Shown piece by piece: positions 1 to 50,868 of a stretch of 63,768 nucleotides of DNA (the first letter of the stretch is position 1; each line of letters starts with the position of its first letter). A program made the translations under genes and the position numbers. Source of the stretch: Actinomycetota bacterium (GTDB lineage Bacteria > Actinomycetota > Coriobacteriia > Anaerosomatales > D1FN1-002). Under the pieces are notes generated by a model. That model had not been told where the DNA came from. It saw nothing but the letters and a program-made list of their open reading frames with translations, and did not search any database. Location of the stretch: positions 16,433 to 80,200 of the forward strand of contig JBBIJK010000005.1 in NCBI GenBank assembly GCA_037445995.1, written 5' to 3'.

Positions 1-720
1 CCGCCGCCAGACCCTGTCTCCCTCCCGCACCGCCAGGTACGCCCTGGCCTCGGTGACCACCGGTCCCTGGTAGTCGAACTCCATGTCCTCCAGGGTGATG
101 AACGCTCCGGTGAAGGGGACGCCGCGATCAGGAAGCTGCGTTATCCGCTGGTGGGACTCCCTTACATCGGGCGTCTCGACGCCCTCGACCAGCAGCATCT
201 CCCCTTCGAACCTGGTCATGGCCGTGACGACCCCGGCGAGGATCACAGCCACCATGCCCCAGTGCATGACCAGCGAACCGGTGTGCCCTCGACGGCCCGA
301 GACGCAGACCACTCCCCCCGGCGCCTCCGCGCACGCCCTGGCGTTCCAGCCGCCCCCGAGCGCCAGGGCCGCCTCGGCCGGCCCCAGACGCCAGGCGATC
401 TCATGAGCCGATTCCGGAGGCTTTCCGACAGAGCCGAACCGCCGGTCGCGACGCTTCGACCTCAGAGCCGTGCACGCCGCGAGATTCACGGACAGGAGCA
501 CGGTCACGACATAGAACGGCCATGAGTGGAACACCCGGTCCAGGCCGAGCGCGAGCGCCGGCTCGGCCAGCCACGGCTCCGACTCGCGCCACCGGTCGAC
601 GACGTTGGTCCCGAGCGTCGCGCTCTGGGGCACGACCACCGACAACACGGACATGACGAGCAGCACCGCGATGAGAGCGGCCGCCAGCCTGATGGAAGCG
701 AGGGCCCTCAGGGCCTTCAT
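1..720 (-). CDS. ResB/CcsB-like cytochrome c biogenesis protein (System II); C-terminal part lies beyond the window edge
   Basis: Absent from the ORF track because there is no stop inside the window. My own translation of the reverse strand from ATG 720-718 gives 240 open codons: MKALRALASIRLAAALIAVLLVMSVLSVVVPQ...RVFHSWPFYVVTVLLSVNLAACTALRSKRR...GHTGSLVMHWGMVAVILAGVV. This shows a ResB-type N-terminal TM, an SWxF helix with Cys/Arg, and a His-containing TM. The ATG overlaps the upstream stop (ATGA at 717-720). Confidence 0.7.
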   Translation of the reverse strand, partial: MKALRALASIRLAAALIAVLLVMSVLSVVVPQSATLGTNVVDRWRESEPWLAEPALALGLDRVFHSWPFYVVTVLLSVNLAACTALRSKRRDRRFGSVGKPPESAHEIAWRLGPAEAALALGGGWNARACAEAPGGVVCVSGRRGHTGSLVMHWGMVAVILAGVVTAMTRFEGEMLLVEGVETPDVRESHQRITQLPDRGVPFTGAFITLEDMEFDYQGPVVTEARAYLAVREGDRVWRR

Positions 721-2303: not shown

Positions 2304-3385
2304 CGCTTGACCTCCCCGTACCTCAGGACCGTTACCCCTTCGGCGTCGGCGTCCAGCAGCCACAGGGCGCCGGCCGCCACGCGCGCGCGGGGCAGCAGGT
2401 CGGGCAGGAACACCGACCAGGGAACGATCTCCCTGGCGATCAGGCGCCCGGTATGCGAGGCCGCTATGACCTCCGCCTCGGGCACGAGGGCGTAGGGCCA
2501 GCCCGCGCGACCGACAGCGACCTCGGGGGCGAAGCTCCGGGGCATGACCACCCACACCACGTCTCCGTCAACCCCCAGAGGGGTCGACATGCCGGGCACG
2601 CGCAGCATCGAGCCGTCAGGCCACGTGATCGTGTGGGTGCTGTCCTCGGTGGGGTTGAACCCGTCCTCCTCCAGGAGCCTGCGGTACATGCGGCCCGCGG
2701 TGTCGGCGCCGGCGCCCACCACCGCGACCTGCTCCTCGACGGGCGCCGGACCTTCGGCCAGCAGCTCGACGATTGGCACCGCCTGGGGCTCGAACCGCAT
2801 CGCCGCCGGGACGTCGTCGAACATGAAGATCTCGGACGTCACGAACAACCTGTCTTCGGCCCTGAACAGGTTCGCGCTGTTCACTTCGGCCGGTATGGGG
2901 AAACTGGCCTCCACGGAACCGTCCTCACTCAGGAGCCTCAGCGTCTCGCTCATGGACTCCCCCCGGGCGGTGACGTACATGATGCCGTTGCCGAACGGCT
3001 CGAAGAGCGTCGAGCCCGGAGGGGTCATCCAGGTGGCCTCCAGCTTCCCCTCAGGGGAGAAGCGGCGAACCCTGGCGCCGACGTGCCAGCCGGGATGATC
3101 GGCCAGCAGGATCCTCCCGTCCGGCGTCACGGCCAGCCTGCCCACCGTCGAGCCTGACCCCTCGGGGTCCGCCCAGACGTCGCCGTCTCCCGTGCCCCAC
3201 GGCAGGCGCAGCACGACCGTGGGCTCAAGGTCGAGCGCTGGAGGCTGCGAGAGGTCGACCTGTGGCACGAGCTCAGGCGGCGGCTTCCCCGCCCCGCCGA
3301 ACAGGTAGGTCGCGAACCCCGCGCCCAGCAGGGCCGCTATAGCCGCGCTGCCGATGACGATGCCGCGCACGGTCCGCCGGTCCAT
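2300..3385 (-). CDS. Hypothetical protein with an N-terminal TM anchor and an extracytoplasmic domain
   Basis: 361-aa ORF with ATG at 3385 preceded by GGAGGA. N-terminus MDRRTVRGIVIGSAAIAALLGAGFATYLF is one hydrophobic helix. No motif recognised in the rest. Packed between ccsA-like and SBP genes with 12-nt and overlapping junctions. Confidence 0.6.
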   Translation of the reverse strand: MDRRTVRGIVIGSAAIAALLGAGFATYLFGGAGKPPPELVPQVDLSQPPALDLEPTVVLRLPWGTGDGDVWADPEGSGSTVGRLAVTPDGRILLADHPGWHVGARVRRFSPEGKLEATWMTPPGSTLFEPFGNGIMYVTARGESMSETLRLLSEDGSVEASFPIPAEVNSANLFRAEDRLFVTSEIFMFDDVPAAMRFEPQAVPIVELLAEGPAPVEEQVAVVGAGADTAGRMYRRLLEEDGFNPTEDSTHTITWPDGSMLRVPGMSTPLGVDGDVVWVVMPRSFAPEVAVGRAGWPYALVPEAEVIAASHTGRLIAREIVPWSVFLPDLLPRARVAAGALWLLDADAEGVTVLRYGEVKR

Positions 3386-3397
3386 GGTCCTCCGTGA

Positions 3398-4201
3398 TCA
3401 GTATGGCCTGATGAGCGTGATCTCGAAATGGTGGTAAGTCCCCGGGAAGACGCTCCATATCCACAGCGCGAGCAGCAGCAGCGGGAGCACCGACACGACC
3501 GCTGCGGCAAGCCCTCTGCCGGACAGACTATAGAACAGCCGGGCGTGGATGACGAGGGCGTAGGCGAGCCATGCGACCATGGACAGCGTGCCCACCACGT
3601 CCCAGCGCCAGAACTCGGCGAACAGCAGGTAGAGGTACCAAGCGCCGGTCAGTATCATCGCCGTCATCGCCAGGAAGCCGACGTTGAGCCACGAGCCGAT
3701 CGCGTCGTCGGACGCCTCGGGCGTCATGCCCCAGGCCGGACGGCCGAGCAGTCTGGGGACGGACACGCTGGTGGCGGCGAGGAAGCCGGCGAACGCCACC
3801 CACGCGAAGATCGCGTGCGCCTCCACCCAGAGCGACTGCTCGGAGATGGTGAGCGGCAGAGGCTCCCGCCGGAAGAAAGCCCCGTAAAGCAGGAGGGCCA
3901 GGGACCAGGGCGCCGCCCAGCCCCACGCGCCCGCGGAGTCACGCCGCAGCGAAGTGACGACGGCCGCCCAGGCCAGGAACACCGACGCCAGGAGCGTGTT
4001 CTCGAACGTCCCGAACATCGGGATGTGGCCGGCCGCGGCCCACCTCAGGGCCACCGCGAGGGTGCCCAGGACCGCGACGGCCCGGCAGACCCACCGCGAC
4101 CACGCCAGCGGCCCCCGCGCGACCGCCCACAACAGCAGGACGCACAGGACGATCACCCCGGTGGAGTAGACGGCCAGCGAGACCTCGAACGCCGCTCTCA
4201 C
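3398..4201 (-). CDS. ccsA: CcsA/ResC-like cytochrome c assembly protein (System II heme handling)
   Basis: 267-aa polytopic membrane ORF. Contains GHIPMFGTFENTL, the Trp-rich segment GAWYLYLLFAEFWRWDVVGTLSMVAWLAYALVIHARL (a degenerate WWD domain followed by the conserved His), and an internal VEAHAIFAW His. The GTG start overlaps the stop of the upstream resB-like gene (GTGA). Confidence 0.75.
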   Translation of the reverse strand: MRAAFEVSLAVYSTGVIVLCVLLLWAVARGPLAWSRWVCRAVAVLGTLAVALRWAAAGHIPMFGTFENTLLASVFLAWAAVVTSLRRDSAGAWGWAAPWSLALLLYGAFFRREPLPLTISEQSLWVEAHAIFAWVAFAGFLAATSVSVPRLLGRPAWGMTPEASDDAIGSWLNVGFLAMTAMILTGAWYLYLLFAEFWRWDVVGTLSMVAWLAYALVIHARLFYSLSGRGLAAAVVSVLPLLLLALWIWSVFPGTYHHFEITLIRPY

Positions 4202-5535
4202 GTCCCGGCCCCCTTACCCGAGGCGCCATCCGAGATACGGCGCCCGACCTCGCGGGCCAGAGGAAGGCCGGCGGCGCGCCCCGGCCGTCCGTCGACGCGA
4301 GCGAGGACCCCGAGCCCCTCGCCGTGCCTCCAGACGACCACGTGCCTGGCCGGGAGAAGGGTACGGCATCCAAGCCCGGCCGTCATCATCACGCCCGCCA
4401 GCGCCAGCAGCGGCCAGCCGTACGAGCGCCACACGCGAAGGACGCCGAAGCGCCGCATCTCGGCCACCCTCACGTCCATGCCCGACACGCCGAGCGTCTC
4501 ACCCACCGACACCAGACGCCTGCCTTCCACCACCCCTGAAGGGAAGGTGCGCTCGACCCCCATCAGCACCTTTGGGTTCCGCAGGTTGTAGCTGGCCGAG
4601 ACGTCACGGCCCCCCATCCTCGCGTGGTCGGGGTACACCACCATCGACACCGTGTAGCCATGCCCCGGCAGGCGCACCCTGTCGAGCGAGCCGGGCGGGA
4701 AGAGCGCCGCGGCGGCTATGACCTCCTCGACCACCTCGCCGGATGGCGACAGCAGCTGGATGCGGGGGGCGTACCCGAAATCCTGCACCGACATCAGCGT
4801 GAACGGGTCCAGCCAAAGAGGCGAGGACAGGGAGAACCCCCGCGTCCTCCCGGTGCCCTCCTCCACCACCGTCGCCGCCAGCCGCTCGAACAGCAGCACG
4901 TCTTGGAAGAAGGACGGCTCGAGTGTCTCAAGCGTCAGGCTGGCCGCCGATGAGGGCAACGCCTCCCAATCCCCCTCTCCGGCCGCGAGGCCAGCGAGCG
5001 GGACGTCGCTGCTCTGACCCTCGATGAGCCTGAACTGGATCGAGCCGGCGGTCGCGGCGTGCGCCACCAGCCCGGCCGCCAGCAGAGGCACGCCCAGGTG
5101 GAAGAGCGAGCCCGACAGCAGCGACCATCGCCTCTGGACGCCCGTGACCCGGTCCTCAAGGCGCGAGACCGCGAATCCCATTCGGCCCAGAGCGGCCTGC
5201 GCGGCCTCCAAGTCCCCCACGCAACTATCCATCGGCTCAAGAGGCAGAGGGCGGCCGGCGGAGCGCTTCAGCCGCAGGCGGCCGAGGTCCTTGCCCAAGC
5301 GCGCCAGGCCGCAGACGGCGCTTGTGGCCACCAGCGCCCAGTGGGCTGCCCTGAAGGGCAGCCAGTCGTTGCCGATGCCCCGGAGCGTCGCCTCGGGCTG
5401 GCCGGTGAGCTGGAACGGGACCAGCCACACCAGCGCCAGCGCGATCCACGCCCCGATCACCCAGAAGGACGCGACGCGCGACGACATGGCGTCGAGGAAC
5501 AGACTCAGGGCGCGCCGTACCGGCGTGCGCATCAA
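4198..5535 (-). CDS. ResB/CcsB-like cytochrome c biogenesis protein, divergent copy
   Basis: 445-aa ORF (ATG at 5532 is the second codon). Layout is N-terminal TM, WLPFRAAHWALVATSAVCGLARL helix, RRWSLLSGSLFHLGVPLLAAGLVAH helix, a large soluble middle and a C-terminal TM WPLLALAGVMMTAGLG, which is ResB-like topology. Lies 38 nt downstream of the giant cytochrome gene. Confidence 0.6.
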   Translation of the reverse strand: MMRTPVRRALSLFLDAMSSRVASFWVIGAWIALALVWLVPFQLTGQPEATLRGIGNDWLPFRAAHWALVATSAVCGLARLGKDLGRLRLKRSAGRPLPLEPMDSCVGDLEAAQAALGRMGFAVSRLEDRVTGVQRRWSLLSGSLFHLGVPLLAAGLVAHAATAGSIQFRLIEGQSSDVPLAGLAAGEGDWEALPSSAASLTLETLEPSFFQDVLLFERLAATVVEEGTGRTRGFSLSSPLWLDPFTLMSVQDFGYAPRIQLLSPSGEVVEEVIAAAALFPPGSLDRVRLPGHGYTVSMVVYPDHARMGGRDVSASYNLRNPKVLMGVERTFPSGVVEGRRLVSVGETLGVSGMDVRVAEMRRFGVLRVWRSYGWPLLALAGVMMTAGLGCRTLLPARHVVVWRHGEGLGVLARVDGRPGRAAGLPLAREVGRRISDGASGKGAGT

Positions 5536-5574: not shown

Positions 5575-8500
5575 CTACCTGCGTCGGCTGTAGTAGTAGA
5601 TGACGCCGTCGGAGCCGCGAGGGTTGGTGGGACCGTGCTCGTTGCAGGTAGCGTAGGTCGACGTGAACTCCTGCGTCACGCAGTTGGCGGCGCCGTCGGG
5701 CAGGTTCGCCCCTACGTCCTCGTACCGGTGCGAGGCTCCCCAGACCGCGCCGTTCATCATGCGATAGCCCGCCGCGGTCCACTGCGCCGTCGGGGACGCC
5801 TCGCGGTTGGTGCCGTGGAGGGCGCCCGACGACGGCCAGCCCGTGCGGGGTCTGGCGCCGTGGCACTGGTAGCAGCCGATGTTCATCAGGTGAGCCATCC
5901 CCCAGCTTGCGGTGCCGGCGTCGTCGACCCTGCTGCACCCCGAATGGTTGAATCGCGACAGGTTACGGTAGGTCGCGCCGTTGACATACACGTCGGCGCG
6001 GTGGCAGTTCACGCAGAAGTTGGACGCGTTGGTGTTGGTGTTGTTGTTGGGCAGGAGGACCGATCCGCCAGCGACCGTGACCTTGACGGCGGTGTCCTTA
6101 CCTCGAAGTTGCCAGCGGCTCGAGGAGCCGTGAGGCGTATGGCAGTCGGTGCAGGTCACGAGGCTGGCGGCCTGCCATCCGTTGGTGAAGGTGTTGGACA
6201 GGCCGTTGTTGATCTCCGCGGTGCCGATGCGGCGGCGCCCCGCGCTGGTGTTCCAGTTGGTGTTGGCGTTGACCGGGGGCTGGTTCCAGCCGCGAGCGAA
6301 CACCGGGTGGTATGAGGTCATCGACGGGTTGAAGTCGCGACCGACGTCGGTCTGCTGACCGCCGCCCATTGCGCCCGCGCCGGACTGGTTGGCCGTGCTC
6401 AGGCTCACGAGCGGCGTGGCGGCGGTGCTCCACGCGTAGCGGCTGTGGCACTTCAGGCACAGCTGCCACTGGTAGGAGATCGTCTCGACCTTGGAGTACG
6501 TCGGGAAGGCGGGGGTGATGGTGGTCCCGCTCCCCGTCCACGTCCCGTTGACCGACCCGGAGATGGTGACGCCCCAGACGCCGTACAGGGCCCCTCCGAG
6601 CGGTACGGCAGTGTCGGTCGGCCTCACGCTGTGGAATTCCGGCAGGGTCGATGCACCGGAACGTGTCGCGTGGACGTTGTGGCAGTCCATGCAGCTCGCG
6701 TGCCGGGTGGCACCGACGTTCCAGCCCGCGGCCGTGTTCTCCTGCGCGGAGTGCCGCTCCCGGCCGATCGGGTGGCGGTACGGACGCGCGAAGTCGCTCT
6801 CGACGCGGCTGGCCGGCCAGGTCAGCGGCTGGGAATCGTAGTAGTCGCGCCGCTTGACCGCGTTGGGGTTGCCAAAGCCGTGGCACCGGTAGCACAGCGT
6901 CGGGTAGGAGGTGCCCGTCGCGTTGATGGAGACGCCCATGCCGGCCAGCAGCGTGGCCTCGGCGGAGAAGTGGAGGCCAAAGCGGTCGGGGCCGATCGCC
7001 TTGCTGCCGGTGTTCTCGTCGTCGTGGCACTTGGAGCAGTTCGCCCTGAAGTTGGGCTGCCCCGCGGCCAGGGTGCCCGGGACCGAATAGTTGTGCGCCG
7101 AGGCGGCGTAGTCCTGCGGGGATATCCCGAAGACGATCGGGCCGCCGCCGGCCCTCTGGTTGACGTTGTCCCTTGGCATGTTGGAGGAGTGGCAGCTCAG
7201 GCAGATCCCGTAGCTCGGGTTGCCGCTGGCGATGAAGTCGGTGTTGGTGCCCCCCGTCGAAGGCTGGGCGCCGATCGAGAAGCGCAGGTTCGCGGCGGGG
7301 TTGGCGTTGAAGTAGTTGTGGTCCACGTGGCAGGAGACGCACTGCAGCACCGACGTCGATGTCGGATAGGCACCGGTGCCGGGCGCCGCGTCAGGCGGCG
7401 AGCCGTCGAGCACGTGATGGAAGAAGCCGGTCTGACCCGTGTTCATCGCCTGATACGGATGGCATCCGTAGCAGGGCAGGGTGCCGTTGGAGCCGCCGCC
7501 CGTGGGCTGGTGGACGTCCGCGTGACAGCCCAGGCAGCTCTGCGTGGTGTCGTAGTGGTAGTGGCCGTTGACGTTGGGCAGCCTCAGCTTGGGGCCGACC
7601 GCCTGCCCGACCGCCGACTGCGTGAAGCGGCTGAAGCCAAGGGCGCGGTCCCCGACGGTGACGGACTGCATCGCCGAGCCGTTCCAGCCCGAGTTGCCGC
7701 TGGCGGTGGTGTGACAGCTGAAGCAGAAGTTGCGGACACCCTGGGCGGTACCCACGTTGAGCTCGCCCACGCCGTCACCGACGGTCACCGTCGTGCCGTT
7801 GTACTGCGTGATCACCTGCAGGCCGTACGTGGTCTCGCCCGAGCCGTGCGGGTTGTGGCACGCGTAGCACGGGATCGGCGAGCCGCCGGCGAACACGGTG
7901 CCGGTGGTGGACACGGTGCGGTGGCCCGAGCGGGGGTCGGTGCTGGAGCCGCCGACCGACGTCGGGTACTTGGCCCTGATGTCCAGCGTCGATGGCGAGC
8001 CGTCGTGGCAGGTGAAGCAGAAGGTGAACGAGGTGTTCGTGAACGTGCTGGTGGACGGGGTGCCTCGCAGGTCGTCAAGGGGGTTGGCGGTCCCGTGGAC
8101 ATCGTGGCACTGCTTGCAGTCGCCGCTGACGTAGGGGTTGGGCGAGAAGTCGGGCCAGCGCACGTTGACCGTCGAGGTGTTGTGGATGCCGCGCGCGATC
8201 CAGGTGGCAAAGCCCGGCCAGGCGCCGTCGGTCGGGTAGAACGAGGCTGTCAGCGATGGATGGGCCTGCGCCGGGAACCCGGTCGAGGCGACGTTGTGGC
8301 ACGCCTGGCAGACGCGGTTGTCGTTTGCGGTGATCGTCAGGGCGCCGATCGTGTTGACGTTGCTGGCGGCCTGGTAGGTGCCGAGCAGCTTGGGCGCCGC
8401 CGAGCCGTGCTTGTCGTGACAGTCGTCGCAGGTCTGGATCTCGCCGGCCGATATCGAGCCGTTGGGGATCCAGTGGCTGCGGGCCTGGTTGGGTGACTTG

Positions 8501-11500
8501 TTGGAGATGGCGGTCTTGGCAGCGCCGATCACGACAGGCGTCGGGACGAGCGATGGCGAGACGGACCACGCCGAGGGCACGGTGCCGTTGTGGCAGCTCA
8601 TGCAGAACTGCGTCCTGTCGTCCTTGGTGGCCCATGCGGCCGGCAGGTAGGTGTTGGTCGGCGAGGAGATCTTGGAGGTGTTCGAGACCTCGTGTGGGTT
8701 GTGGCAGTTCACGCACGCGACGCGAGAGCCAGAGGCGTTGCCAGAGACCGGGTGCGTGGATGCGCGAGAGAAGACCGCCTGGGTCGCGCGGTCCGCCACC
8801 GACATGGCCGCCACGCCGTAGTGGTCGGTCGTCGTGCCGTTGTGGCAGCGGAAGCAGGACTGCTCGAGCAGCGGGTCGACCATCGTGCCGCCAAGAGCCG
8901 AGAGCAGACGGCGCTCGGGCGAGACGTGCGCGGAGAACTTGTTGGCAGAGCTCTGGAACTGCTCCGTGGGGCTGTCGGAGTCGTGGCACTTGACGCAGTT
9001 GGCGCGGAAGGTCGATGAGCCGAACGTAGAGGTCGCGTTGTAGCTGTGCGTGGAGGTGGTGAACACCGAGCCGCTTATCGCCGCGACCCCGTTGCGGCCG
9101 TCACTGCGCTGGTTGGTGAGGTCCTTGGTGCGCGCCGTCGAGTGGCACGAGACGCAGATGCCGAAGCTGCCAGAACCGATGAAGTCGGTGTTGGTGGCAA
9201 GGGCGCCAGAGGTGTTGGTGATGGCGATGCGCAGGTTGGCGGCGGGCGAAGTCGGGCTCGAGCCGTTGAAGTAGTTGTGGTCGGTGTGGCACGAGACGCA
9301 GAAGACGTCCTGGTTCGATGTCGGGTAGGTCCCGGCGCCTGGCGCCATGTCGCCGGTGTAGGCGACGGTCGAGGTGCCCAGCACATGGTGGTAGGCGTTG
9401 GTCTTCTGGGTGCCGGCCATGTCCATGGTCTCGCGGAAGGCCGTGTGGCAGCTGTAGCAGTTCGAGCCGCCGTTGGAGATGCCGCCCGTGGGCTGGTGCG
9501 GGTCTGCGTGGCACTGCAGGCAGTCCTGCGTGGTGTCGTAGTGGTAGTGGCCGTTGACGTTGGGGAGCCTGAGCTTGGGGCCGACCGCCTGCCCGACCGC
9601 CGACTGCGTGAAGCGGCTGAAGCCAAGGGCGCGGTCCCCGACGGTGACGGACTGCATCGCCGAGCCGTTCCAGCCCGAGTTGCCGCTGGCGGTGGTGTGA
9701 CAGCTGAAGCAGAAGTTGCGGACACCCTGGGCGGTACCCACGTTGAGCTCGCCCACGCCGTCACCGACGGTCACCGTCGTGCCGTTGTACTGCGTGATCA
9801 CCTGCAGGCCGTACGTGGTCTCGCCCGAGCCGTGCGGGTTGTGGCACGCGTAGCACGGGATCGGCGAGCCGCCGGCGAACACGGTGCCGGTGGTGGACAC
9901 GGTGCGGTGGCCCGAGCGGGGGTCGGTGCTGGAGCCGCCGACCGACGTCGGGTACTTGGCCCTGATGTCCAGCGTCGATGGCGAGCCGTCGTGGCAGGTG
10001 AAGCAGAAGGTGAACGAGGTGTTCGTGAACGTGCTGGTGGACGGGGTGCCTCGCAGGTCGTCAAGGGGGTTGGCGGTCCCGTGGACATCGTGGCACTGCT
10101 TGCAGTCGCCGCTGACGTAGGGGTTGGGCGAGAAGTCGGGCCAGCGCACGTTGACCGTCGAGGTGTTGTGGATGCCGCGCGCGATCCAGGTGGCAAAGCC
10201 CGGCCAGGCGCCGTCGGTCGGGTAGAACGAGGCTGTCAGCGATGGATGGGCCTGCGCCGGGAACCCGGTCGAGGCGACGTTGTGGCACGCCTGGCAGACG
10301 CGGTTGTCGTTTGCGGTGATCGTCAGGGCGCCGATCGTGTTGACGTTGCTGGCGGCCTGGTAGGTGCCGAGCAGCTTGGGCGCCGCCGAGCCGTGCTTGT
10401 CGTGACAGTCGTCGCAGGTCTGGATCTCGCCGGCCGATATCGAGCCGTTGGGGATCCAGTGGCTGCGGGCCTGGTTGGGTGACTTGTTGGAGATGGCGGT
10501 CTTGGCAGCGCCGATCACGACAGGCGTCGGGACGAGCGATGGCGAGACGGACCACGCCGAGGGCACGGTGCCGTTGTGGCAGCTCATGCAGAACTGCGTC
10601 CTGTCGTCCTTGGTGGCCCATGCGGCCGGCAGGTAGGTGTTGGTCGGCGAGGAGATCTTGGAGGTGTTCGAGACCTCGTGTGGGTTGTGGCAGTTCACGC
10701 ACGCGACGCGAGAGCCAGAGGCGTTGCCAGAGACCGGGTGCGTGGATGCGCGAGAGAAGACCGCCTGGGTCGCGCGGTCCGCCACCGACATGGCCGCCAC
10801 GCCGTAGTGGTCGGTCGTCGTGCCGTTGTGGCAGCGGAAGCAGGACTGCTCGAGCAGCGGGTCGACCATCGTGCCGCCAAGAGCCGAGAGCAGACGGCGC
10901 TCGGGCGAGACGTGCGCGGAGAACTTGTTGGCAGAGCTCTGGAACTGCTCCGTGGGGCTGTCGGAGTCGTGGCACTTGACGCAGTTGGCGCGGAAGGTCG
11001 ATGAGCCGAACGTAGAGGTCGCGTTGTAGCTGTGCGTGGAGGTGGTGAACACCGAGCCGCTTATCGCCGCGACCCCGTTGCGGCCGTCACTGCGCTGGTT
11101 GGTGAGGTCCTTGGTGCGCGCCGTCGAGTGGCACGAGACGCAGATGCCGAAGCTGCCAGAACCGATGAAGTCGGTGTTGGTGGCAAGGGCGCCAGAGGTG
11201 TTGGTGATGGCGATGCGCAGGTTGGCGGCGGGCGAAGTCGGGCTCGAGCCGTTGAAGTAGTTGTGGTCGGTGTGGCACGAGACGCAGAAGACGTCCTGGT
11301 TCGATGTCGGGTAGGTCCCGGCGCCTGGCGCCATGTCGCCGGTGTAGGCGACGGTCGAGGTGCCCAGCACATGGTGGTAGGCGTTGGTCTTCTGGGTGCC
11401 GGCCATGTCCATGGTCTCGCGGAAGGCCGTGTGGCAGCTGTAGCACGCGCTCCCGCCGCTCGAGCCGCCCGGACTCGGGTTGTGGACGTTGTTGGTGGTC

Positions 11501-14500
11501 GCCCCCGTGTAGTCGCTGCCGTGGCATCCGTAGCACGACTGGGTGTCGGCGTTGTAGTGGCCGCTCACCGGCGGGATCTTCAGGTGGGCGCCGTTGGCGT
11601 CGTAGGCCGTGCGCGAGATGCCGAGGTGGACGTCCCCGGCCTGCAGGGTGACCATCGTCGAGCCGTTCCACGCCCAAGTGGAGGTGGACTCCGCCGAGCC
11701 GTGGCAGCTGAAGCAGAACCGGCGTACCGATGCGGGGGTCGGCGTGCCGGTGACCGTGATCTCACCCGTGCTGTCGCCGATCGTGATGGTCGCCCCGCGC
11801 GTGCGGGTGACGACCTTCAGACCGTATGGCGAGGCGGTGCCGTGCGGGTTGTGGCACTCGTAGCAGGGCAGCGCGCTGCCCGCGGCGAGCGAGCCTGGCG
11901 ACAGAGTGCGGTGGCCGAAGCGCGTGCCGGGGCTGCTAGCGCCGCCGAACGCCGACTGGACCGCGGTCCCGCCGGCCGCCACCGGGTAGTAGCGGCGGAT
12001 GTCGTCAGCAGCCGGGCTGCCGTCGTGACAGGTGAAGCAGAACGCGAAGGTCCCAGCCGAGTAGTTCGGCGTCGTAGTCGTCCCGCCTCGCAGGATGTCG
12101 AGGGTGTTGGAGGGCCCGTGCATGACGTGGCAGTTCTTGCAATCGCCGGTCGCAAGACCCGACGAGGGCCAGATCATGTTGGCCGTGGAGGTCCCGTGCA
12201 GCGAACCGGTGTGGTCGGCGGGGCTGTAGACGACCGCGTAGGTCGCCTCGCCGGGCCAGCGGCCCGTGAGCGGGTAGCCCGAAGCGTTGCGCGAGTAGGC
12301 GGTAAGAGCGCCTGAGTGGCAGCCGTAGCAGACGGTGGCGTTGTTGCCGGTCAGGGTGCGGGCGCCGATGCGCGAGACCGCCGCGGTCGCGTCGTACGTC
12401 CCCAGGAGTCTAGGGACGCGGCTGGCGTGGTTGTCGTGGCAGGCGGTGCACTGGATGCCGGGATTGGACGATGTGGAGGGCACCCTCGAGACGTCGGCGT
12501 GCAGGTTCAGCGAGGGCGTCCAGCCGGTGCGGTGATCGCCGCCTGAGTTCACGTAGGCGCCGGAGCCGCCGACTATCGCGATCAGGGTCGCGGCCGAGTC
12601 GGAAGCGCTGCCGTGGCAGTCGAAGCAGACCTGGTTCCCGACCGGGTTCGAGTAGCTGTTGTAGCGGTAGGTGACGGCGGGCGTCGTGATCTGCGTGCGG
12701 AGCAGCAGGTTGAAGGCGTTAGCGGGGTTCGGGTCCACCCCGGTCGTGGCCGGACGACGGTGCGGGGTGTGGCACGCGTCGCACTCGCGCTGAATCGACG
12801 CCATGTAGGCGTTGCGATGCACCCAGCGCGTGCCGCTGACCGACGGGCCGGTGGTGGCCACGACGGTGTCGTCGCCAAAACCGCCCTGGGAGTCGTAGGT
12901 CGAGCCCCAGCCGAAGGCAGCGGTGCCGGCGGTCGCGCCGTGGCACCTGTAGCAGGACTGCGCGCTCTTGGCCCCCAGCGACAGCGACTGGGCCGCGCCG
13001 TGAGGGGTGTGGCAGTTGGTGCAGTTGGCGATGTTGTAGCCCGAGAGATAGGTCCCGTGAGGGTCTGGTGAGGACATCGGCGACGTCGCCGAGACGTTCC
13101 CTGAAGCGTCGATGGCGCGGATCGTGTAGTAGTAGGTGTACTTCGCGGGCAGCGTCTCGGTGGTGCCCTTCGCGAACGTGGCCGAGGTGACCGAGGAGGG
13201 CACCGTCGCCACCTGCATCGGCGTGGCGGTGACCGTGCGGGAGCGCCACACCGTGTAGGTGGTGACTCCGCTCTGGTCGTCGCGCGCGGCGTTCCACGTC
13301 ACCGTGACCGAGGACAACCCGTCGACGCGAGCGAAGGGCCGTGACGGCGCGCTGGGCGGCGTGACGTCGAGCACCTCTAGACCGGTGGAGAAGGTGATGG
13401 GCTCGACCTCGCCAAGCGGATTGCCCGCGCGGTCGCGGAGGGCCGGCGAGATGCGGATGGCGTAGGTGCCGCCAGCCAGCGCCACCTTGGGCTTGAGTCT
13501 GACGGCCCTCTCACGGGCGGAGTAGGTGACCTCGGCCGACACCGGCTTGCCAGCGGCGTCGGCAAGACTGACCCCGCGCTCGGCCGTGGTCGGGTCAAGG
13601 CTCTCCGAGAAGGTCAGCGTGAACGAGTCCGCGCGGACGCGGGTGGCCCCCGTCGGCACAGATGCGGCGACGAAACGCGGGGGCACGCGATCGCGCACCG
13701 AGGCCATCCGCAGCCGCAGGGGGCTCCAGACCTTGGCCGGCGACATGTAGCTGGCGAAGGTCAGGCTCGGCCCCGCGCCGGGATAGGCGCGGACCTGCCA
13801 GCGTCCGGCGTTGCGCTCGAGCCAGACGACCGCGTCGCCCTGCGCCTCCACGCCCGACATCGGCCCCGAGCCGCGGGAGTCAAAGACGACGGGCTTGCGG
13901 TCCGAGAGCGAGAAGCCGTCGATGTGGAGGCGCTCGCCGGCGCTGTTGTCTATCCAGTACGCGACCCCGCCGCCCACCGTCGGCAGCGTCTGCTCCCCCG
14001 GCCCGGTGAAGACGTCGAAGGTCTCGCCGGTGGCCGAGTCCCAGGCCCTGAGGTCGAGGCTGTCCCCTGCGGCGGCGGCCCAGACCACGTAACGGCCGTC
14101 GGTGGAGGGCAGCATCTCGTTGACCGAGGTGCCAGCTATGGTCGTCTTGACGCCGCTGACCCGGTTCCAGATGCGAACGTCCGCGTCACCGCGGCCGCCG
14201 GCCTGCCCGGAGTAGTCCTCCCAGACCACCAGGTCGCCAGCCACCTGCGGGCGGCGCTTGGGACGGTTGTAGCCAGAGTCGATCCAAACCTCGGCGCCAA
14301 GGGAGATGTCAAAGCCGTAGACACCGGGGCTGTAGCCGGTGCGATAGTCCTCCCAGACCACCAGGTCGCCCCAGACCGACGGATTGACCTGGTCGTTGGC
14401 GGCCGCGCACACGACCCGGGTGGTCCCCGAGGGGATATCGAAAAGGTGTATGTCGGCCGTGCCCGCCGCGTAGCTCACGTAGACCACGCGGTCACCGTAG

Positions 14501-14763
14501 ATAGCGGGCTGGATCTCATCGGCCGCCGAAGACGCGATTGCACGCGTCACACCGGACGCCGAGTCCATCAGCATGATGTCGAACGAGCCCCCCGAGCGGT
14601 CCGCCCACACCACCCAGCGACCCGAGATCGCCGGGGTCTCGGGCATGCGCCCGCCAGCGGCGAGGGGCGACCCCGCGCCGTTCAGCGCGACCGCGACGGC
14701 CGCGCACAGCGCGAAAGCCGTTGCGAGTGCAACGGCCAGATAGCGCCTCGACAGCGTACGCAT
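5575..14763 (-). CDS. Giant secreted multiheme c-type cytochrome (~3062 aa, ~49 CXXCH) with propeller-like, Ig-like and FN3-like N-terminal domains
   Basis: ORF 5575..14844. I place the start at ATG 14763 (GGGAG 6 nt upstream), which gives the signal-like MRTLSRRYLAVALATAFALCAAVAVA. There are seven GxxVVWxD-type repeats, then SbsA-Ig-like and FN3-like segments. I count 49 CXXCH motifs (CTNCH, CYRCH, CDACH ... CYQCH), many as CXXCHxxH(G). Confidence 0.9.
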   Translation of the reverse strand: MRTLSRRYLAVALATAFALCAAVAVALNGAGSPLAAGGRMPETPAISGRWVVWADRSGGSFDIMLMDSASGVTRAIASSAADEIQPAIYGDRVVYVSYAAGTADIHLFDIPSGTTRVVCAAANDQVNPSVWGDLVVWEDYRTGYSPGVYGFDISLGAEVWIDSGYNRPKRRPQVAGDLVVWEDYSGQAGGRGDADVRIWNRVSGVKTTIAGTSVNEMLPSTDGRYVVWAAAAGDSLDLRAWDSATGETFDVFTGPGEQTLPTVGGGVAYWIDNSAGERLHIDGFSLSDRKPVVFDSRGSGPMSGVEAQGDAVVWLERNAGRWQVRAYPGAGPSLTFASYMSPAKVWSPLRLRMASVRDRVPPRFVAASVPTGATRVRADSFTLTFSESLDPTTAERGVSLADAAGKPVSAEVTYSARERAVRLKPKVALAGGTYAIRISPALRDRAGNPLGEVEPITFSTGLEVLDVTPPSAPSRPFARVDGLSSVTVTWNAARDDQSGVTTYTVWRSRTVTATPMQVATVPSSVTSATFAKGTTETLPAKYTYYYTIRAIDASGNVSATSPMSSPDPHGTYLSGYNIANCTNCHTPHGAAQSLSLGAKSAQSCYRCHGATAGTAAFGWGSTYDSQGGFGDDTVVATTGPSVSGTRWVHRNAYMASIQRECDACHTPHRRPATTGVDPNPANAFNLLLRTQITTPAVTYRYNSYSNPVGNQVCFDCHGSASDSAATLIAIVGGSGAYVNSGGDHRTGWTPSLNLHADVSRVPSTSSNPGIQCTACHDNHASRVPRLLGTYDATAAVSRIGARTLTGNNATVCYGCHSGALTAYSRNASGYPLTGRWPGEATYAVVYSPADHTGSLHGTSTANMIWPSSGLATGDCKNCHVMHGPSNTLDILRGGTTTTPNYSAGTFAFCFTCHDGSPAADDIRRYYPVAAGGTAVQSAFGGASSPGTRFGHRTLSPGSLAAGSALPCYECHNPHGTASPYGLKVVTRTRGATITIGDSTGEITVTGTPTPASVRRFCFSCHGSAESTSTWAWNGSTMVTLQAGDVHLGISRTAYDANGAHLKIPPVSGHYNADTQSCYGCHGSDYTGATTNNVHNPSPGGSSGGSACYSCHTAFRETMDMAGTQKTNAYHHVLGTSTVAYTGDMAPGAGTYPTSNQDVFCVSCHTDHNYFNGSSPTSPAANLRIAITNTSGALATNTDFIGSGSFGICVSCHSTARTKDLTNQRSDGRNGVAAISGSVFTTSTHSYNATSTFGSSTFRANCVKCHDSDSPTEQFQSSANKFSAHVSPERRLLSALGGTMVDPLLEQSCFRCHNGTTTDHYGVAAMSVADRATQAVFSRASTHPVSGNASGSRVACVNCHNPHEVSNTSKISSPTNTYLPAAWATKDDRTQFCMSCHNGTVPSAWSVSPSLVPTPVVIGAAKTAISNKSPNQARSHWIPNGSISAGEIQTCDDCHDKHGSAAPKLLGTYQAASNVNTIGALTITANDNRVCQACHNVASTGFPAQAHPSLTASFYPTDGAWPGFATWIARGIHNTSTVNVRWPDFSPNPYVSGDCKQCHDVHGTANPLDDLRGTPSTSTFTNTSFTFCFTCHDGSPSTLDIRAKYPTSVGGSSTDPRSGHRTVSTTGTVFAGGSPIPCYACHNPHGSGETTYGLQVITQYNGTTVTVGDGVGELNVGTAQGVRNFCFSCHTTASGNSGWNGSAMQSVTVGDRALGFSRFTQSAVGQAVGPKLRLPNVNGHYHYDTTQDCLQCHADPHQPTGGISNGGSNCYSCHTAFRETMDMAGTQKTNAYHHVLGTSTVAYTGDMAPGAGTYPTSNQDVFCVSCHTDHNYFNGSSPTSPAANLRIAITNTSGALATNTDFIGSGSFGICVSCHSTARTKDLTNQRSDGRNGVAAISGSVFTTSTHSYNATSTFGSSTFRANCVKCHDSDSPTEQFQSSANKFSAHVSPERRLLSALGGTMVDPLLEQSCFRCHNGTTTDHYGVAAMSVADRATQAVFSRASTHPVSGNASGSRVACVNCHNPHEVSNTSKISSPTNTYLPAAWATKDDRTQFCMSCHNGTVPSAWSVSPSLVPTPVVIGAAKTAISNKSPNQARSHWIPNGSISAGEIQTCDDCHDKHGSAAPKLLGTYQAASNVNTIGALTITANDNRVCQACHNVASTGFPAQAHPSLTASFYPTDGAWPGFATWIARGIHNTSTVNVRWPDFSPNPYVSGDCKQCHDVHGTANPLDDLRGTPSTSTFTNTSFTFCFTCHDGSPSTLDIRAKYPTSVGGSSTDPRSGHRTVSTTGTVFAGGSPIPCYACHNPHGSGETTYGLQVITQYNGTTVTVGDGVGELNVGTAQGVRNFCFSCHTTASGNSGWNGSAMQSVTVGDRALGFSRFTQSAVGQAVGPKLRLPNVNGHYHYDTTQSCLGCHADVHQPTGGGSNGTLPCYGCHPYQAMNTGQTGFFHHVLDGSPPDAAPGTGAYPTSTSVLQCVSCHVDHNYFNANPAANLRFSIGAQPSTGGTNTDFIASGNPSYGICLSCHSSNMPRDNVNQRAGGGPIVFGISPQDYAASAHNYSVPGTLAAGQPNFRANCSKCHDDENTGSKAIGPDRFGLHFSAEATLLAGMGVSINATGTSYPTLCYRCHGFGNPNAVKRRDYYDSQPLTWPASRVESDFARPYRHPIGRERHSAQENTAAGWNVGATRHASCMDCHNVHATRSGASTLPEFHSVRPTDTAVPLGGALYGVWGVTISGSVNGTWTGSGTTITPAFPTYSKVETISYQWQLCLKCHSRYAWSTAATPLVSLSTANQSGAGAMGGGQQTDVGRDFNPSMTSYHPVFARGWNQPPVNANTNWNTSAGRRRIGTAEINNGLSNTFTNGWQAASLVTCTDCHTPHGSSSRWQLRGKDTAVKVTVAGGSVLLPNNNTNTNASNFCVNCHRADVYVNGATYRNLSRFNHSGCSRVDDAGTASWGMAHLMNIGCYQCHGARPRTGWPSSGALHGTNREASPTAQWTAAGYRMMNGAVWGASHRYEDVGANLPDGAANCVTQEFTSTYATCNEHGPTNPRGSDGVIYYYSRRR
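7541..11445 (-). repeat. In-frame tandem duplication, period 1986 bp (662 aa, 14 CXXCH per unit), two copies
   Basis: 7586..9459 matches 9572..11445 with no differences seen. Overlapping ORFs in several frames are duplicated exactly at offset 1986 (for example 7812..8210 and 9798..10196, or 8075..8989 and 10061..10975). Two synonymous mismatches occur at 7579/9565 and 7585/9571. Identity decays outside 7541 and 9459/11445. Confidence 0.9.
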
Positions 14764-14827
14764 TTGCGCTCCCGTATCCGAGACGAAGACCAGCGCGGCT
14801 GATAGCCGCCCTGACACCTTAATACGG

Positions 14828-14870
14828 ATTATCGGCCGATTCAATGTCAGACGCTGTGAGCGCCGTCACA
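14828..14870 (-). promoter_or_regulatory. Candidate promoter of the cytochrome operon: CRP/FNR-family palindrome TGTGA-N6-TCACA plus a GATAAT -10 box
   Basis: Perfect TGTGAgcgccgTCACA at 14855..14870, inside a longer imperfect palindrome (TGTC...GACA, 14846..14880). GATAAT on the minus strand at 14833..14828 places the palindrome centre at -41.5 if GATAAT is -12..-7. No good -35 hexamer. Confidence 0.4.
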
Positions 14871-14884
14871 CGAGACGACACTGT

Positions 14885-14916
14885 CGGCGCCCGCTACCGC
14901 CGGCGCCCGCTACCGC
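14885..14916. repeat. 16-bp perfect tandem direct repeat (cggcgcccgctaccgc x2) spanning the argH stop codon
   Basis: Read directly: 14885..14900 is identical to 14901..14916. The argH stop (TAG, 14912-14910) lies in the second copy. Confidence 0.9.
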
Positions 14917-50800: not shown

Positions 50801-50868
50801 GTGAGCCCTCCCTGTCCTGCGCCCCGCGCCGTGGCGAGCGTGCGCTATTGATACCATAGTCGCGGCCC

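What the first reader, a model, noticed from the sequence alone, without database searches (positions are those of the whole stretch)
5575..14763. Unusual domain architecture of the giant cytochrome: propeller + Ig-like + FN3-like head on a ~2450-aa heme array
Seen: a signal-like N-terminus (MRTLSRRYLAVALATAFALCAAVAVA) is followed by seven ~45-aa units carrying G-x-x-V-V-W/Y-x-D/E: GRWVVWADR, GDRVVYVSY, GDLVVWEDY (twice), GRYVVWAAA, GGVAYWIDN and GDAVVWLER. Next comes PPRFVAASVPTGATRV...TYAIRISPALRDRAGNPL. Then TPPSAPS...VTVTWNAARDDQSGVTTYTVWR...YYYTIRAIDASGNVS. Then 49 CXXCH motifs by my count (11 + 14 + 14 + 10), many of the form CXXCHxxH(G), such as CTNCHTPHG, CKNCHVMHG, CYECHNPHG, CDDCHDKHG and CTDCHTPHG. 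No LPXTG motif and no C-terminal TM helix is visible. Established: the VVW-type repeats are typical of beta-propeller cell-surface domains. The second segment resembles SbsA-type Ig-like S-layer domains and the third resembles fibronectin type III. CXXCH...PHG spacing is characteristic of the doubled-CXXCH cytochrome domain family. Inference: the head domains may tether or orient the heme array in the cell envelope or toward a solid substrate. The extra His two residues after the proximal His could supply distal ligands to neighbouring hemes.
Basis: partly seen in the sequence, partly recalled or inferred. Interest (0 to 1): 0.8.

Follow-up and report, generated by a model that had tools for sequence, protein, structure and literature searches.

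The report
Giant 49-heme actinobacterial surface cytochrome
This is a real 3,062-residue secreted protein of an uncultured Coriobacteriia bacterium that joins a propeller, Ig-like and FN3-like "head" to a chain of at least 49 haem sites built by repeated duplication of a 14-haem cassette; it is most likely a wire that carries respiratory electrons out through the cell wall.

Summary
Window 5575-14763 (minus strand) encodes a 3,062-aa protein. It has an N-terminal signal peptide, a 7-bladed TIGR04275-type beta-propeller, a Big_5 (SbsA-type) Ig-like domain, an FN3-like domain and exactly 49 CXXCH motifs (11+14+14+10). It has no LPXTG motif and no second hydrophobic segment.

- The array is an amplified 662-aa, 14-haem cassette. 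It contains two older diverged partial copies and two tandem copies whose DNA is 100% identical over 1,874 bp.
- A syntenic orthologue in another metagenome carries about 85 motifs over 16 kb.
- The head-plus-cytochrome architecture is not unique. An exhaustive HMMER search found 27 further protein clusters with the same complete head, normally followed by 14-16 haems. None has a functional name.

A divergent ResB/CcsA (System II haem-attachment) pair lies directly downstream. This arrangement is conserved in the orthologue.

The best reading is a cell-envelope-spanning electron conduit of a monoderm bacterium. It is analogous to, but not homologous with, the giant S-layer-fused cytochromes of ANME archaea. 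The role of the head (adhesin or anchor) is inferred, not shown. I rate it a new variant of a known kind, of moderate to high interest.

The parts
5575..14763 (-). Whole gene: 3,062-aa multihaem c-type cytochrome precursor. Mature protein about 319 kDa apo, about 349 kDa with 49 haems.
   Evidence: identical to public protein P0380
14686..14763 (-). Signal peptide, aa 1-26. Basic n-region (R2, R6, R7), 19-residue h-region, AVA|L cleavage-type site. Sec-type; the RR is not conserved in homologues.
   Evidence: AxA-type sites at the same place in homologues; no SignalP available
13783..14664 (-). Seven-bladed beta-propeller, aa 34-327. Blade 7 is closed by the N-terminal strand 34-36.
   Evidence: TIGR04275 E 4e-37; AlphaFold pLDDT >90, 28 strands; Foldseek TolB, S9 and trilobed-protease propellers
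13384..13692 (-). Big_5 (SbsA-type) bacterial Ig-like domain, aa 358-460
   Evidence: PF13205 E 2.4e-15, full-length match 1-105/105; pLDDT about 90
13069..13362 (-). FN3-like domain, aa 468-565, followed by the conserved PDPHGT junction to haem 1
   Evidence: best PDB hit 1K85 FN3 E 4e-5; orthologues hit Pfam fn3 below threshold; pLDDT 60-80
11446..13023 (-). Haem block A, aa 581-1106, 11 CXXCH. Its last ~500 aa are an old copy of the C-terminal ~460 aa of the cassette (36% identity).
   Evidence: the first ~400 aa align with the head-bearing 15-haem family (P0237, 41% over giant 32-976)
9460..11445 (-). Cassette copy B1, aa 1107-1768, 14 CXXCH (662 aa, 1,986 bp)
7474..9459 (-). Cassette copy B2, aa 1769-2430, 14 CXXCH. 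DNA is 100% identical to B1 over 1,874 bp (7586-9459 = 9572-11445). The last 37 codons differ at 7 residues.
5578..7473 (-). Block C, aa 2431-3062, 10 CXXCH. The first ~290 aa are an old copy of the cassette start (35% identity). Then comes a unique tail ending ...YYYSRRR, shared with head-less ~19-haem proteins.
4198..5535 (-). ResB-like protein (445 aa, 3 hydrophobic segments), 39 bp downstream of the cytochrome
   Evidence: weak PF05140 hit, 19 bits, below threshold; 51% identical orthologue recorded as ResB in the syntenic locus
3398..4201 (-). CcsA/ResC-like haem-handling membrane protein (267 aa, FWRWD motif), overlapping resB by 4 bp
   Evidence: PF01578 46.6 bits vs 29.9; TIGR03144 far below cut-off, so divergent
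2300..3385 (-). Conserved protein of unknown family (361 aa) with one N-terminal membrane anchor or signal segment and an extracytoplasmic body
   Evidence: no Pfam, NCBIfam or PDB match; 43% identical orthologue at the same position
717..2300 (-). SBP_bac_5 solute-binding lipoprotein-like gene in the same gene string
1..759 (-). N-terminal part of a second, canonical-looking ResB (cut by the window edge)
   Evidence: the full second ResB plus CcsA pair is seen in the syntenic locus

Best explanation
The gene encodes a secreted multihaem c-type cytochrome of about 350 kDa. It most likely acts as a single-polypeptide electron conduit ('wire') across and beyond the thick envelope of a monoderm Coriobacteriia bacterium.

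**Steps shown by sequence.**
- A Sec-type signal peptide exports the unfolded chain.
- 49 CXXCH sites of the doubled-CXXCH type follow one another every ~50 residues, with no haem-free gap.
- Conserved non-motif His residues (plus one Met) outnumber the haems. This fits bis-His electron-transfer haems rather than a catalytic site.
- A dedicated, divergent System II pair (ResB-like and CcsA-like) sits immediately downstream.
- The array grew by tandem duplication of a 662-aa, 14-haem cassette.

**Steps inferred.**
- The haems form one continuous chain roughly 40-50 nm long. This uses ~0.8-1 nm per haem, as in OmcS and GSU1996 (my own knowledge).
- The C-terminal module is shared with the head-less relatives and is exported last. 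It would stay near the membrane and take in electrons.
- The propeller, Ig-like and FN3-like head is exported first and built from domain types typical of surface proteins. It would lie distal and act as an adhesin or spacer toward a mineral, polymer or partner cell.
- Cassette number sets the length of the wire.
For: - Architecture.
- Axial ligands: 69 non-proximal His and 29 Met for 49 haems. In the last 1,012 aa, 21 His and 1 Met are at least 70% conserved for 18 motifs across 44 homologues, including every +3 His.
- No catalytic or other enzymatic domain was found in any Pfam or NCBIfam scan.
- Haem-attachment genes lie 39 bp downstream and are conserved (43-55% identity) in the syntenic orthologue.
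- Cassette structure. The orthologue has about 85 motifs over 16.2 kb, with ~2,064-bp tandem units at ~74% identity.
- Lineage: PheT is 60-74% identical to Coriobacteriia, Anaerosomatales and Actinobacteria MAG proteins, and the arg operon order is actinobacterial.
- Cultured Anaerosomatales reduce Fe(III) and carry 17-18 multihaem cytochromes (PMC9686372). A Coriobacteriales with 37 such cytochromes was enriched on an anode (PMC7399161). HGW-Actinobacteria were predicted to be iron reducers (PMC5520028); one of them (P0050) carries a head-less homologue.
- Precedent for giant cytochromes with non-haem surface domains and a dedicated maturation paralogue: ANME MHC-A/B/C (PMC9012536).
Against: - There are no expression, haem-content or localisation data.
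- The organism is known only from metagenome assemblies.
- The AlphaFold model of the array is unreliable (pLDDT 52.6) and gave no structural match. Linear geometry is therefore assumed, not seen.
- No recognisable wall-binding module (SLH, LysM, sortase signal) explains how the protein stays on the cell.
- No quinol dehydrogenase or other multihaem partner lies in the 64-kb window.
- The orientation (head distal or proximal) rests only on export order and analogy.
- Signal-peptide cleavage was not tested with a predictor.
- The 100% identity of the two cassette copies, and the exact copy number, could be products of graph-based assembly.
Confidence: 0.55

Rival explanations
1. Same wire, opposite polarity or embedded anchor. 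The head binds the cell's own wall polymers or S-layer and fixes the N-terminus in the envelope, as the first reader's 'tether' suggests. The C-terminal module would then be the exposed reductase end.
For: Big_5 is the SbsA-type S-layer Ig domain. TIGR04275 propellers are typical of archaeal cell-surface proteins. TolB-like propellers are the nearest structures, and TolB binds a peptidoglycan-associated partner (the binding is my own knowledge). No other anchoring device is present.
Against: The C-terminal module is the part conserved across head-less relatives. This argues that it meets a conserved cellular partner rather than a variable substrate. Head-bearing relatives add large variable haem-free inserts, consistent with environment-facing variability. 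There is no direct evidence either way.
Confidence: 0.25
2. Electron store (capacitor) or redox buffer in the wall zone rather than a directed conduit. Many low-potential haems would hold charge when acceptors are scarce.
For: Very high haem number per polypeptide, with an apparently all-bis-His ligand inventory. Copy number varies between relatives.
Against: A store does not need a surface-type adhesion head or strict colinear cassette order. Related lineages are respiratory Fe(III) or electrode reducers (PMC9686372, PMC7399161). The two roles are not exclusive.
Confidence: 0.1
3. A multihaem enzyme (for example a reductase of a soluble N or S compound) with a long internal feeder chain.
For: The profile of the tail family weakly matches the NrfA haem region (E 3.5e-8) and other haem proteins. 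Pfam gives weak c552 and NrfB-type hits.
Against: No CXXCK or other variant motif is present. Conserved His and Met ligands exceed the haem count. The matches cover only generic haem-packing stretches. No phmmer hit to any PDB chain was found.
Confidence: 0.05
4. Assembly artefact: the fusion, or the second cassette copy, does not exist in the cell.
For: The two copies are 100% identical over 1,874 bp. All five residue differences between the two strain versions are mirrored in both copies. That is what a single repeat node traversed twice in a de Bruijn graph would give. A third assembly of the same species breaks inside the gene.
Against: The fusion is seen in many independent contigs. Two distinct cassette ends exist. 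One (…ADPHQPTGGISNGGSN) rejoins a cassette start and the other (…ADVHQPTGGGSNGTLP) leads into block C, which requires at least two copies. The third assembly's contig ends at residue 1810, 42 residues into a second copy. This is the expected repeat-induced break and includes the copy-to-copy junction. Two separate assemblies give the same 3,062-aa length. The orthologue has several diverged copies. Copy number could be higher than two, not lower.
Confidence: 0.04

Closest known systems
Head-bearing ~15-haem proteins of uncultured Actinomycetota (for example P0235, P0237, P0239, P0251; one is labelled only 'predicted CXXCH cytochrome family protein')
   Same: Same signal peptide, 7-blade propeller, Big_5, FN3-like head and PDPHG junction. 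The first ~9 haem sites are colinear (P0237 is 41% identical over giant residues 32-976).
   Different: They carry 14-16 CXXCH. In 21 of 29 there is a 211-1,344-aa haem-free interval after haem 6. They end in ...HGWKRPRLL...W(P). P0237 has no ResB/CcsA neighbours. The window's protein has no such insert, 49 motifs from cassette amplification, and a tail closer to the head-less family.
Head-less ~1,000-1,100-aa, 19-haem 'cytochrome c3 family' proteins of Coriobacteriia, Actinobacteria and Bacillota MAGs (P0034, P0045, P0050 HGW-Actinobacteria-1, P0072)
   Same: P0034 is colinear with giant residues 2051-3043 (38% identity). It also aligns to 648-1563 and 1389-2225, so the giant is about three overlapping copies of this layout. 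Both share conserved His ligands and an aromatic C-terminus.
   Different: No propeller, Ig or FN3 head, no recent cassette duplication, and about 2.6-fold fewer haems.
Giant ANME archaeal multihaem cytochromes (MHC-A/B/C, 20-86 haems; PMC9012536, PMC5520028)
   Same: Very large secreted haem arrays fused to non-haem surface domains, including haem-free N-terminal domains. A dedicated paralogue of the haem-attachment machinery lies next to the gene. They are proposed to carry electrons through a proteinaceous or thick envelope.
   Different: Archaeal. They use DUF1608 S-layer, peptidase-M6-like or pectin-lyase-like domains and C-terminal TM helices, and the Ccm (System I) CcmF paralogue. None of those features is present here. 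This is analogy, not shown homology.
Surface cytochromes of Gram-positive metal reducers: OcwA (Thermincola, 9 haems) and OmhA (Carboxydothermus, 11 haems) (PMC7829351)
   Same: Secreted multihaem cytochromes of monoderm bacteria with no porin partner, acting at the cell surface.
   Different: Four to five times fewer haems, no propeller/Ig/FN3 head, and no detectable sequence match in the PDB searches.
MtrC/OmcA-type decahaem cytochromes and c7-polymer GSU1996 / long Desulfuromonadia 'wire' cytochromes (PMC11492766)
   Same: Pfam MtrC-MtrF_II-IV_dom and Cytochrome_C7 models score above threshold on the cassettes. The idea of long wires built by duplicating small haem modules is established for GSU1996.
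   Different: No MtrC beta-barrel domains I and III and no porin context. UndA matches the family profile only at E 0.0017. The duplicated module here is 14 haems and 662 aa, not 3 haems.

Membership tests
Multihaem c-type cytochrome | Multiple CXXCH haem-attachment motifs in an exported polypeptide | tested here: met
   49 CXXCH against 0.14 expected; N-terminal signal sequence
Multihaem c-type cytochrome | Covalent haem actually attached at each motif | not testable with these tools
   Needs mass spectrometry or haem staining. A System II-like pair adjacent to the gene makes it plausible.
Doubled CXXCH domain (PF09699 / TIGR01905) | HMM score above the curated threshold | tested here: met
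   PF09699 91-96 bits per segment vs 20.6; TIGR01905 80 bits vs 25.2
TIGR04275 beta-propeller repeat protein | HMM score above cut-off and a closed propeller fold | tested here: met
   125.7 bits vs 85; 7 blades, pLDDT >90; propeller neighbours in the PDB
Big_5 (SbsA-type) Ig-like domain, PF13205 | HMM score above the gathering threshold over the full model | tested here: met
   57.6 bits vs 23.6, model positions 1-105 of 105
Fibronectin type III, PF00041 | HMM score above the gathering threshold (25 bits) | tested here: not met
   No fn3 hit for the window's domain. Orthologous domains score 14.4-20.7 bits.
Fibronectin type III, PF00041 | FN3 fold or sequence pattern | tested here: inconclusive
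   The best PDB sequence hits are all FN3 domains (1K85 E 4e-5; Robo3, contactin, titin). The model shows a beta-sandwich with pLDDT of only 60-80. No domain-only fold search was run.
ANME S-layer-fused giant cytochromes (MHC-A/B) | DUF1608 S-layer domain | tested here: not met
   No such Pfam hit in any segment
ANME S-layer-fused giant cytochromes (MHC-A/B) | C-terminal transmembrane helix | tested here: not met
   No hydrophobic window above 1.6 outside residues 7-27
MtrC/OmcA outer-surface decahaem family | Pentahaem domains II/IV alternating with beta-barrel domains I/III | tested here: inconclusive
   PF22113 scores 41-74 bits (threshold 30) in fragmented stretches. No domain I/III was detected. 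PDB profile match to UndA is only E 0.0017. The array model is too poor to compare folds.
Sortase- or SLH-anchored Gram-positive surface protein | LPXTG-type sorting signal or SLH/LysM wall-binding domain | tested here: not met
   Pattern search negative; no such Pfam domains
Polymerising cytochrome nanowires (OmcS/OmcE/OmcZ) | Homology to a known filament subunit | tested here: not met
   Only a weak profile match to OmcE 7TFS (E 1e-7 over ~70 positions). No phmmer hit.
Polymerising cytochrome nanowires (OmcS/OmcE/OmcZ) | Head-to-tail polymerisation with inter-subunit haem stacking or ligation | not testable with these tools
   Needs cryo-EM of native material
System II cytochrome c synthase (ResB/CcsB + ResC/CcsA) for the neighbours | HMM membership of both subunits | tested here: inconclusive
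   CcsA-like: PF01578 46.6 bits vs 29.9 (met), but TIGR03144 53.5 vs 187.6. ResB-like: PF05140 19 bits vs 24.6 (below threshold), although its 51%-identical orthologue is on record as ResB.

The most novel reading that the evidence does not exclude
The haem wire is an 'accordion'. Near-identical 14-haem cassettes recombine frequently, so cells of one population carry 35, 49, 63 or more haems, and lineages reach about 85. This would tune the reach of a single-polypeptide conduit to envelope thickness or distance to the acceptor. A dedicated ResB/CcsA paralogue pair would have co-evolved to mature these very long substrates. That would be a heritable, length-adjustable protein nanowire in bacteria, and among the most haem-rich proteins known.
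Probability: 0.25. Interest if true: 0.75.

Novelty: new variant of a known kind. Interest (0 to 1): 0.6.

Why it matters
Extracellular electron transfer in monoderm bacteria is thought to rely on relays of modest cytochromes of 6-11 haems. Giant haem arrays fused to surface domains have so far been described in ANME archaea (PMC9012536). This locus shows three things.
- Uncultured Coriobacteriia encode single polypeptides with at least 49 haems, and about 85 in an orthologue.
- These belong to an unnamed family defined by a propeller, Ig-like and FN3-like head.
- Haem number changes by duplication of a defined 14-haem cassette.

This gives a concrete, testable system for how wire length evolves, how very long apocytochromes are matured by System II, and how iron or electrode reduction may work in subsurface Actinomycetota. 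The cassette is also a natural building block for engineered protein wires.

Tried and rejected
- **Word-indexed homology search with the head** found only four full or partial relatives. The GTDB and JGI scans found one locus each. This wrongly suggested extreme rarity. The exhaustive HMMER search corrected it.
- **PDB sequence searches** with the whole protein and with one cassette found nothing. A family profile gave only weak, generic haem-region matches.
- **AlphaFold of the last 1,012 aa** with 44 homologues gave pLDDT 52.6. Foldseek then returned no meaningful match. Array geometry and ligand pairing could not be read.
- **Exact-sequence look-ups** of the window's giant and PheT found no record. 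The source contig surfaced only through cluster membership.
- **Tandem Repeats Finder** missed the 1,986-bp repeat because its maximum period is 500. A period scan found it.
- **Promoter and terminator scan** of the argH-cytochrome spacer found nothing.
- **The 361-aa neighbour** has no match in Pfam, NCBIfam or the PDB.
- **Tat export rejected.** The SRR in the signal peptide is not conserved in homologues, and c-type haem attachment needs an unfolded Sec substrate (established knowledge).
- **Lipoprotein anchoring rejected.** There is no lipobox.
- **Concerted evolution not claimed.** The mirrored substitutions can be explained by graph-based assembly.
Full report
**1.

The finding lies on the minus strand. 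The open frame runs 5575-14844. The ATG at 14763 is preceded by GGGAG 5 nt upstream and gives a 3,062-aa product beginning MRTLSRRYL. Public gene calls start at the same residue.

There are exactly 49 CXXCH motifs, split 11/14/14/10, and no CXnCH or CXXCK variants. About 0.14 would be expected from the protein's own Cys and His content. No other frame of the 64-kb window has more than one.

The only hydrophobic stretch is residues 7-27. There is no LPXTG-like signal, lipobox or C-terminal helix.

**2. The head**

- NCBIfam TIGR04275 (beta-propeller repeat, Methanosarcina surface type) scores 125.7 bits against a cut-off of 85.
- An AlphaFold model built with 30 sequences has pLDDT above 90 over residues 34-327. 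It shows 28 strands, that is seven four-stranded blades, with the N-terminal strand completing the last blade.
- Foldseek places the model next to the TolB, S9-peptidase, tricorn and trilobed-protease propellers.
- Residues 358-460 match Pfam Big_5 over the full model at 57.6 bits against 23.6.
- Residues 468-565 get no fn3 hit in Pfam; their best Pfam matches (Ig-like families such as Ig_J_second, 24 bits against 27) are also below threshold. Their best PDB sequence match is the FN3 domain of chitinase A1 (1K85, E 4e-5), followed only by FN3 domains. The same domain in relatives gives sub-threshold fn3 hits. I therefore call it FN3-like, not a proven Pfam member.
- The signal peptide has an AVA|L site. 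Homologues have AxA-type sites at the same place and do not conserve the twin Arg. I infer a cleaved Sec signal, but I could not run a predictor.

**3. The array**

Every segment scores far above threshold for the doubled-CXXCH domain (PF09699, TIGR01905). Every segment also scores above threshold for the MtrC/MtrF II-IV and cytochrome c7 models.

Motifs recur every 21-102 residues with no haem-free gap. The array holds 69 non-proximal His and 29 Met for 49 haems.

In an alignment of the last 1,012 residues with 43 homologues, 21 non-motif His and one Met are at least 70% conserved for 18 motifs. Every His at +3 after a proximal His is 73-100% conserved. This supports all-hexacoordinate electron-transfer haems.

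No enzymatic domain was detected.

**4. The array is an amplified cassette**

- A period scan shows that 7586-9459 and 9572-11445 are 100% identical DNA with a period of 1,986 bp (662 aa, 14 haems). The last 37 codons of the two copies differ at seven residues.
- Block A (581-1106) is a 36%-identical older copy of the cassette's last ~460 residues.
- The first ~290 residues of block C are a 35%-identical older copy of the cassette's start.

The array is therefore about 3.2 cassettes plus a unique tail.

The two different cassette ends argue that at least two copies are real. One end rejoins a cassette start and the other leads into block C.

Three assemblies of the same species bear on this:
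- the window itself, which is identical to P0380 on an 80.2-kb NCBI contig;
- P0234 on a 54.9-kb contig, which is also 3,062 aa and differs at 38 residues;
- GCA_037440705.1, which is 98.9% identical in DNA. Its contig ends at residue 1810, which is 42 residues into the second copy.

That break is what a repeat does to a short-read assembly, and it implies that the copy-to-copy junction was read. I could not see that stretch directly.

All five residue differences between the window and P0234 inside the cassette are mirrored in both copies. This could be concerted evolution. It is equally what a repeat node traversed twice in an assembly graph produces. I therefore claim only near-identity and a copy number of at least two.

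**5. Relatives**

*Syntenic orthologue.* It lies on ENA contig_478 of ERZ25039513, a frameshift-rich assembly. The gene order is arg operon, head, haem array, ResB, CcsA, 364-aa unknown, SBP_bac_5, second ResB, second CcsA.
- The array region spans about 16.2 kb.
- It holds about 85 CXXCH motifs across the three frames.
- It contains tandem units of ~2,064 bp at ~74% DNA identity over about 9 kb.

Cassette amplification is therefore a trait of this sub-lineage. The haem count there is approximate because the reading frame is broken.

*Head-less relatives.* The tail is shared with a family of ~1,000-1,100-aa, 19-haem proteins in Coriobacteriia, Actinobacteria and Bacillota MAGs. P0034 is colinear with residues 2051-3043 (38% identity) and aligns in two further registers.

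*Head-bearing family.* The exhaustive HMMER search with a head profile over 1.84 billion representatives changed the picture.
- 27 further 50%-identity clusters carry the complete head at the N-terminus.
- Two more carry a head matched in two separate stretches.
- The 28 complete sequences among these carry 14-16 CXXCH and are 1,230-2,677 aa long.
- 21 of the 29 have a haem-free interval of 211-1,344 aa after the sixth haem.
- Only one carries any name, 'predicted CXXCH cytochrome family protein'.
- P0237 aligns with giant residues 32-976 at 41% identity. It has no ResB/CcsA neighbours.

The head-plus-cytochrome fusion is thus a recurrent, unnamed family. The window's protein is its extreme member.

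**6. Context and organism**

The gene sits in a housekeeping region with pheST, argCJBDFRGH, ilv/leu genes, clpXP and mrp-like genes. This is chromosomal core DNA, not an island.

Downstream lies a tightly packed string of genes on the same strand:
- a ResB-like protein, 39 bp after the stop;
- a CcsA-like protein, overlapping by 4 bp, with PF01578 above threshold and an FWRWD motif;
- a membrane-anchored 361-aa protein with no family;
- an SBP_bac_5 protein;
- the start of a second ResB.

In the orthologue's locus, where both ResB proteins are complete, the cytochrome-adjacent ResB shows no BLAST similarity to the second one. All five genes are 43-55% identical to their counterparts in the orthologue.

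PheT is 99% identical to the GCA_037440705.1 protein. After that it is 60-74% identical to Coriobacteriia, Anaerosomatales and 'Actinobacteria' MAG proteins. I assign the organism to class Coriobacteriia only.

**7. How it most likely works**

The steps shown by sequence are:
- an exported polypeptide with at least 49 haem sites of the electron-transfer type;
- a surface-type non-redox head;
- an adjacent dedicated haem-attachment pair;
- modular growth of the array.

I infer that the haems form one continuous chain about 40-50 nm long. This uses 0.8-1 nm per haem, from OmcS and GSU1996 (my own knowledge). Such a chain would be long enough to cross a Gram-positive wall.

Two arguments bear on orientation:
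- The C-terminal module is what all relatives share, and it leaves the translocon last. I favour it as the membrane-proximal electron-entry end.
- The head leaves first and is accompanied in relatives by variable haem-free inserts. I favour it as a distal adhesin or spacer.

The opposite orientation (head as wall or S-layer anchor) is the main rival. A capacitor role is compatible with either. An enzymatic role and an assembly artefact are unlikely for the reasons given under the rivals.

**8. Comparison with what is known**

Functionally the closest described systems are the giant ANME cytochromes. They have 20-86 haems, S-layer or other non-haem domains, and a dedicated CcmF paralogue next to the gene (PMC9012536; ≥50-haem ANME-2d proteins in PMC5520028). 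The defining ANME features are absent here: there is no DUF1608 domain and no C-terminal helix. I treat this as analogy.

Gram-positive surface cytochromes OcwA and OmhA are much smaller (PMC7829351). Multihaem-rich Coriobacteriia and their link to iron or electrode reduction are already reported (PMC5520028, PMC7399161, PMC9686372). Variation of haem number among homologues has been flagged as unexplored (PMC7399161). Module duplication is accepted for GSU1996 (PMC11492766).

My five literature searches found no description of the head-bearing family or of a 14-haem cassette. That is an absence in the searched library, not proof of novelty.

**9. Verdict**

The 'unusual architecture' is better described as an unnamed but recurrent family, whose member here has been stretched to at least 49 haems by cassette duplication. 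I rate it a new variant of a known kind with interest 0.6.

Noticed in passing
window 1-5535 (minus strand): Two System II-type pairs flank each other. A highly divergent ResB-like and CcsA-like pair lies directly after the cytochrome. A second, canonical-looking ResB starts at the window edge. In the orthologue's locus the two ResB proteins share no BLAST similarity. The layout is conserved in the orthologue but absent next to the 15-haem relative P0237.
   Followed up: partly
window 2300-3385 (minus strand): A 361-aa protein with one N-terminal hydrophobic segment has no match in Pfam, NCBIfam or the PDB. It is conserved (43% identity) at the same position in the syntenic locus. It is a candidate partner or anchor of the cytochrome.
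   Followed up: partly
giant C-terminus (window 5578-5610) and homologues P0034-P0113, P0235-P0379: The extreme C-terminus is aromatic in nearly all relatives: ...W-P or ...W in the head-bearing family, ...NW, ...NYPR or ...YYY in head-less ones, and ...YYYSRRR here. It may cap the last haem or act as a sorting or contact motif.
   Followed up: no
window 6000-14000: GC skew on the plus strand is +0.12 to +0.20 across the giant gene and -0.03 to -0.08 in the flanks, with AT skew also inverted. All these genes are on the same strand, so this probably reflects the Thr/Ser/Gly/Asn/His/Cys-rich, Lys/Glu-poor composition of the protein (K 1.5%, E 1.3%).
   Followed up: no
window 14885-14921: A 16-bp tandem repeat (CGGCGCCCGCTACCGC x2.3) lies at the 3' end of argH, in or next to the 146-bp spacer before the cytochrome. 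The spacer also holds an AT-richer stretch but no consensus promoter or terminator.
   Followed up: partly
window 28563-29063 (plus strand): A 166-aa protein with one CXXCH and a borderline Cytochrome_P460 match (26.6 bits against 27). It is the only other c-type cytochrome candidate in the window.
   Followed up: partly
window 50860-52707 (plus strand); L002 5098-7305: A Wzy_C (O-antigen-ligase-like) membrane protein lies in the window. A Wzy_C/TPR protein, glycosyltransferases and an NHL-repeat protein lie just upstream of the head-bearing homologue in the Coriobacteriia MAG SMAG_U4721. This is a possible link between these cytochromes and envelope polysaccharide genes.
   Followed up: no
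P0235, P0239, P0248, P0251 and others (head-bearing family): Most family members carry a 211-1,344-aa haem-free interval between haem 6 and haem 7, with repeated motifs suggestive of lectin- or propeller-like domains. Only weak Pfam hits (DUF1349, Reelin subrepeat B) were obtained. The window's protein has no such insert.
   Followed up: partly
window 41823-47467 (minus strand): A run of Mrp/Mbh-type antiporter-like subunits (three Proton_antipo_M proteins plus MnhB/MbhE). This is a possible energy-coupling module of the organism. No link to the cytochrome is shown.
   Followed up: no
L001/L005 (ENA ERZ25039513 contig_478): This assembly has frequent frameshifts in housekeeping genes (arg genes are split into fragments). 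The ~16-kb orthologue is therefore broken into many called genes, and the ~85-haem figure is a motif count over three frames, not a verified ORF.
   Followed up: yes
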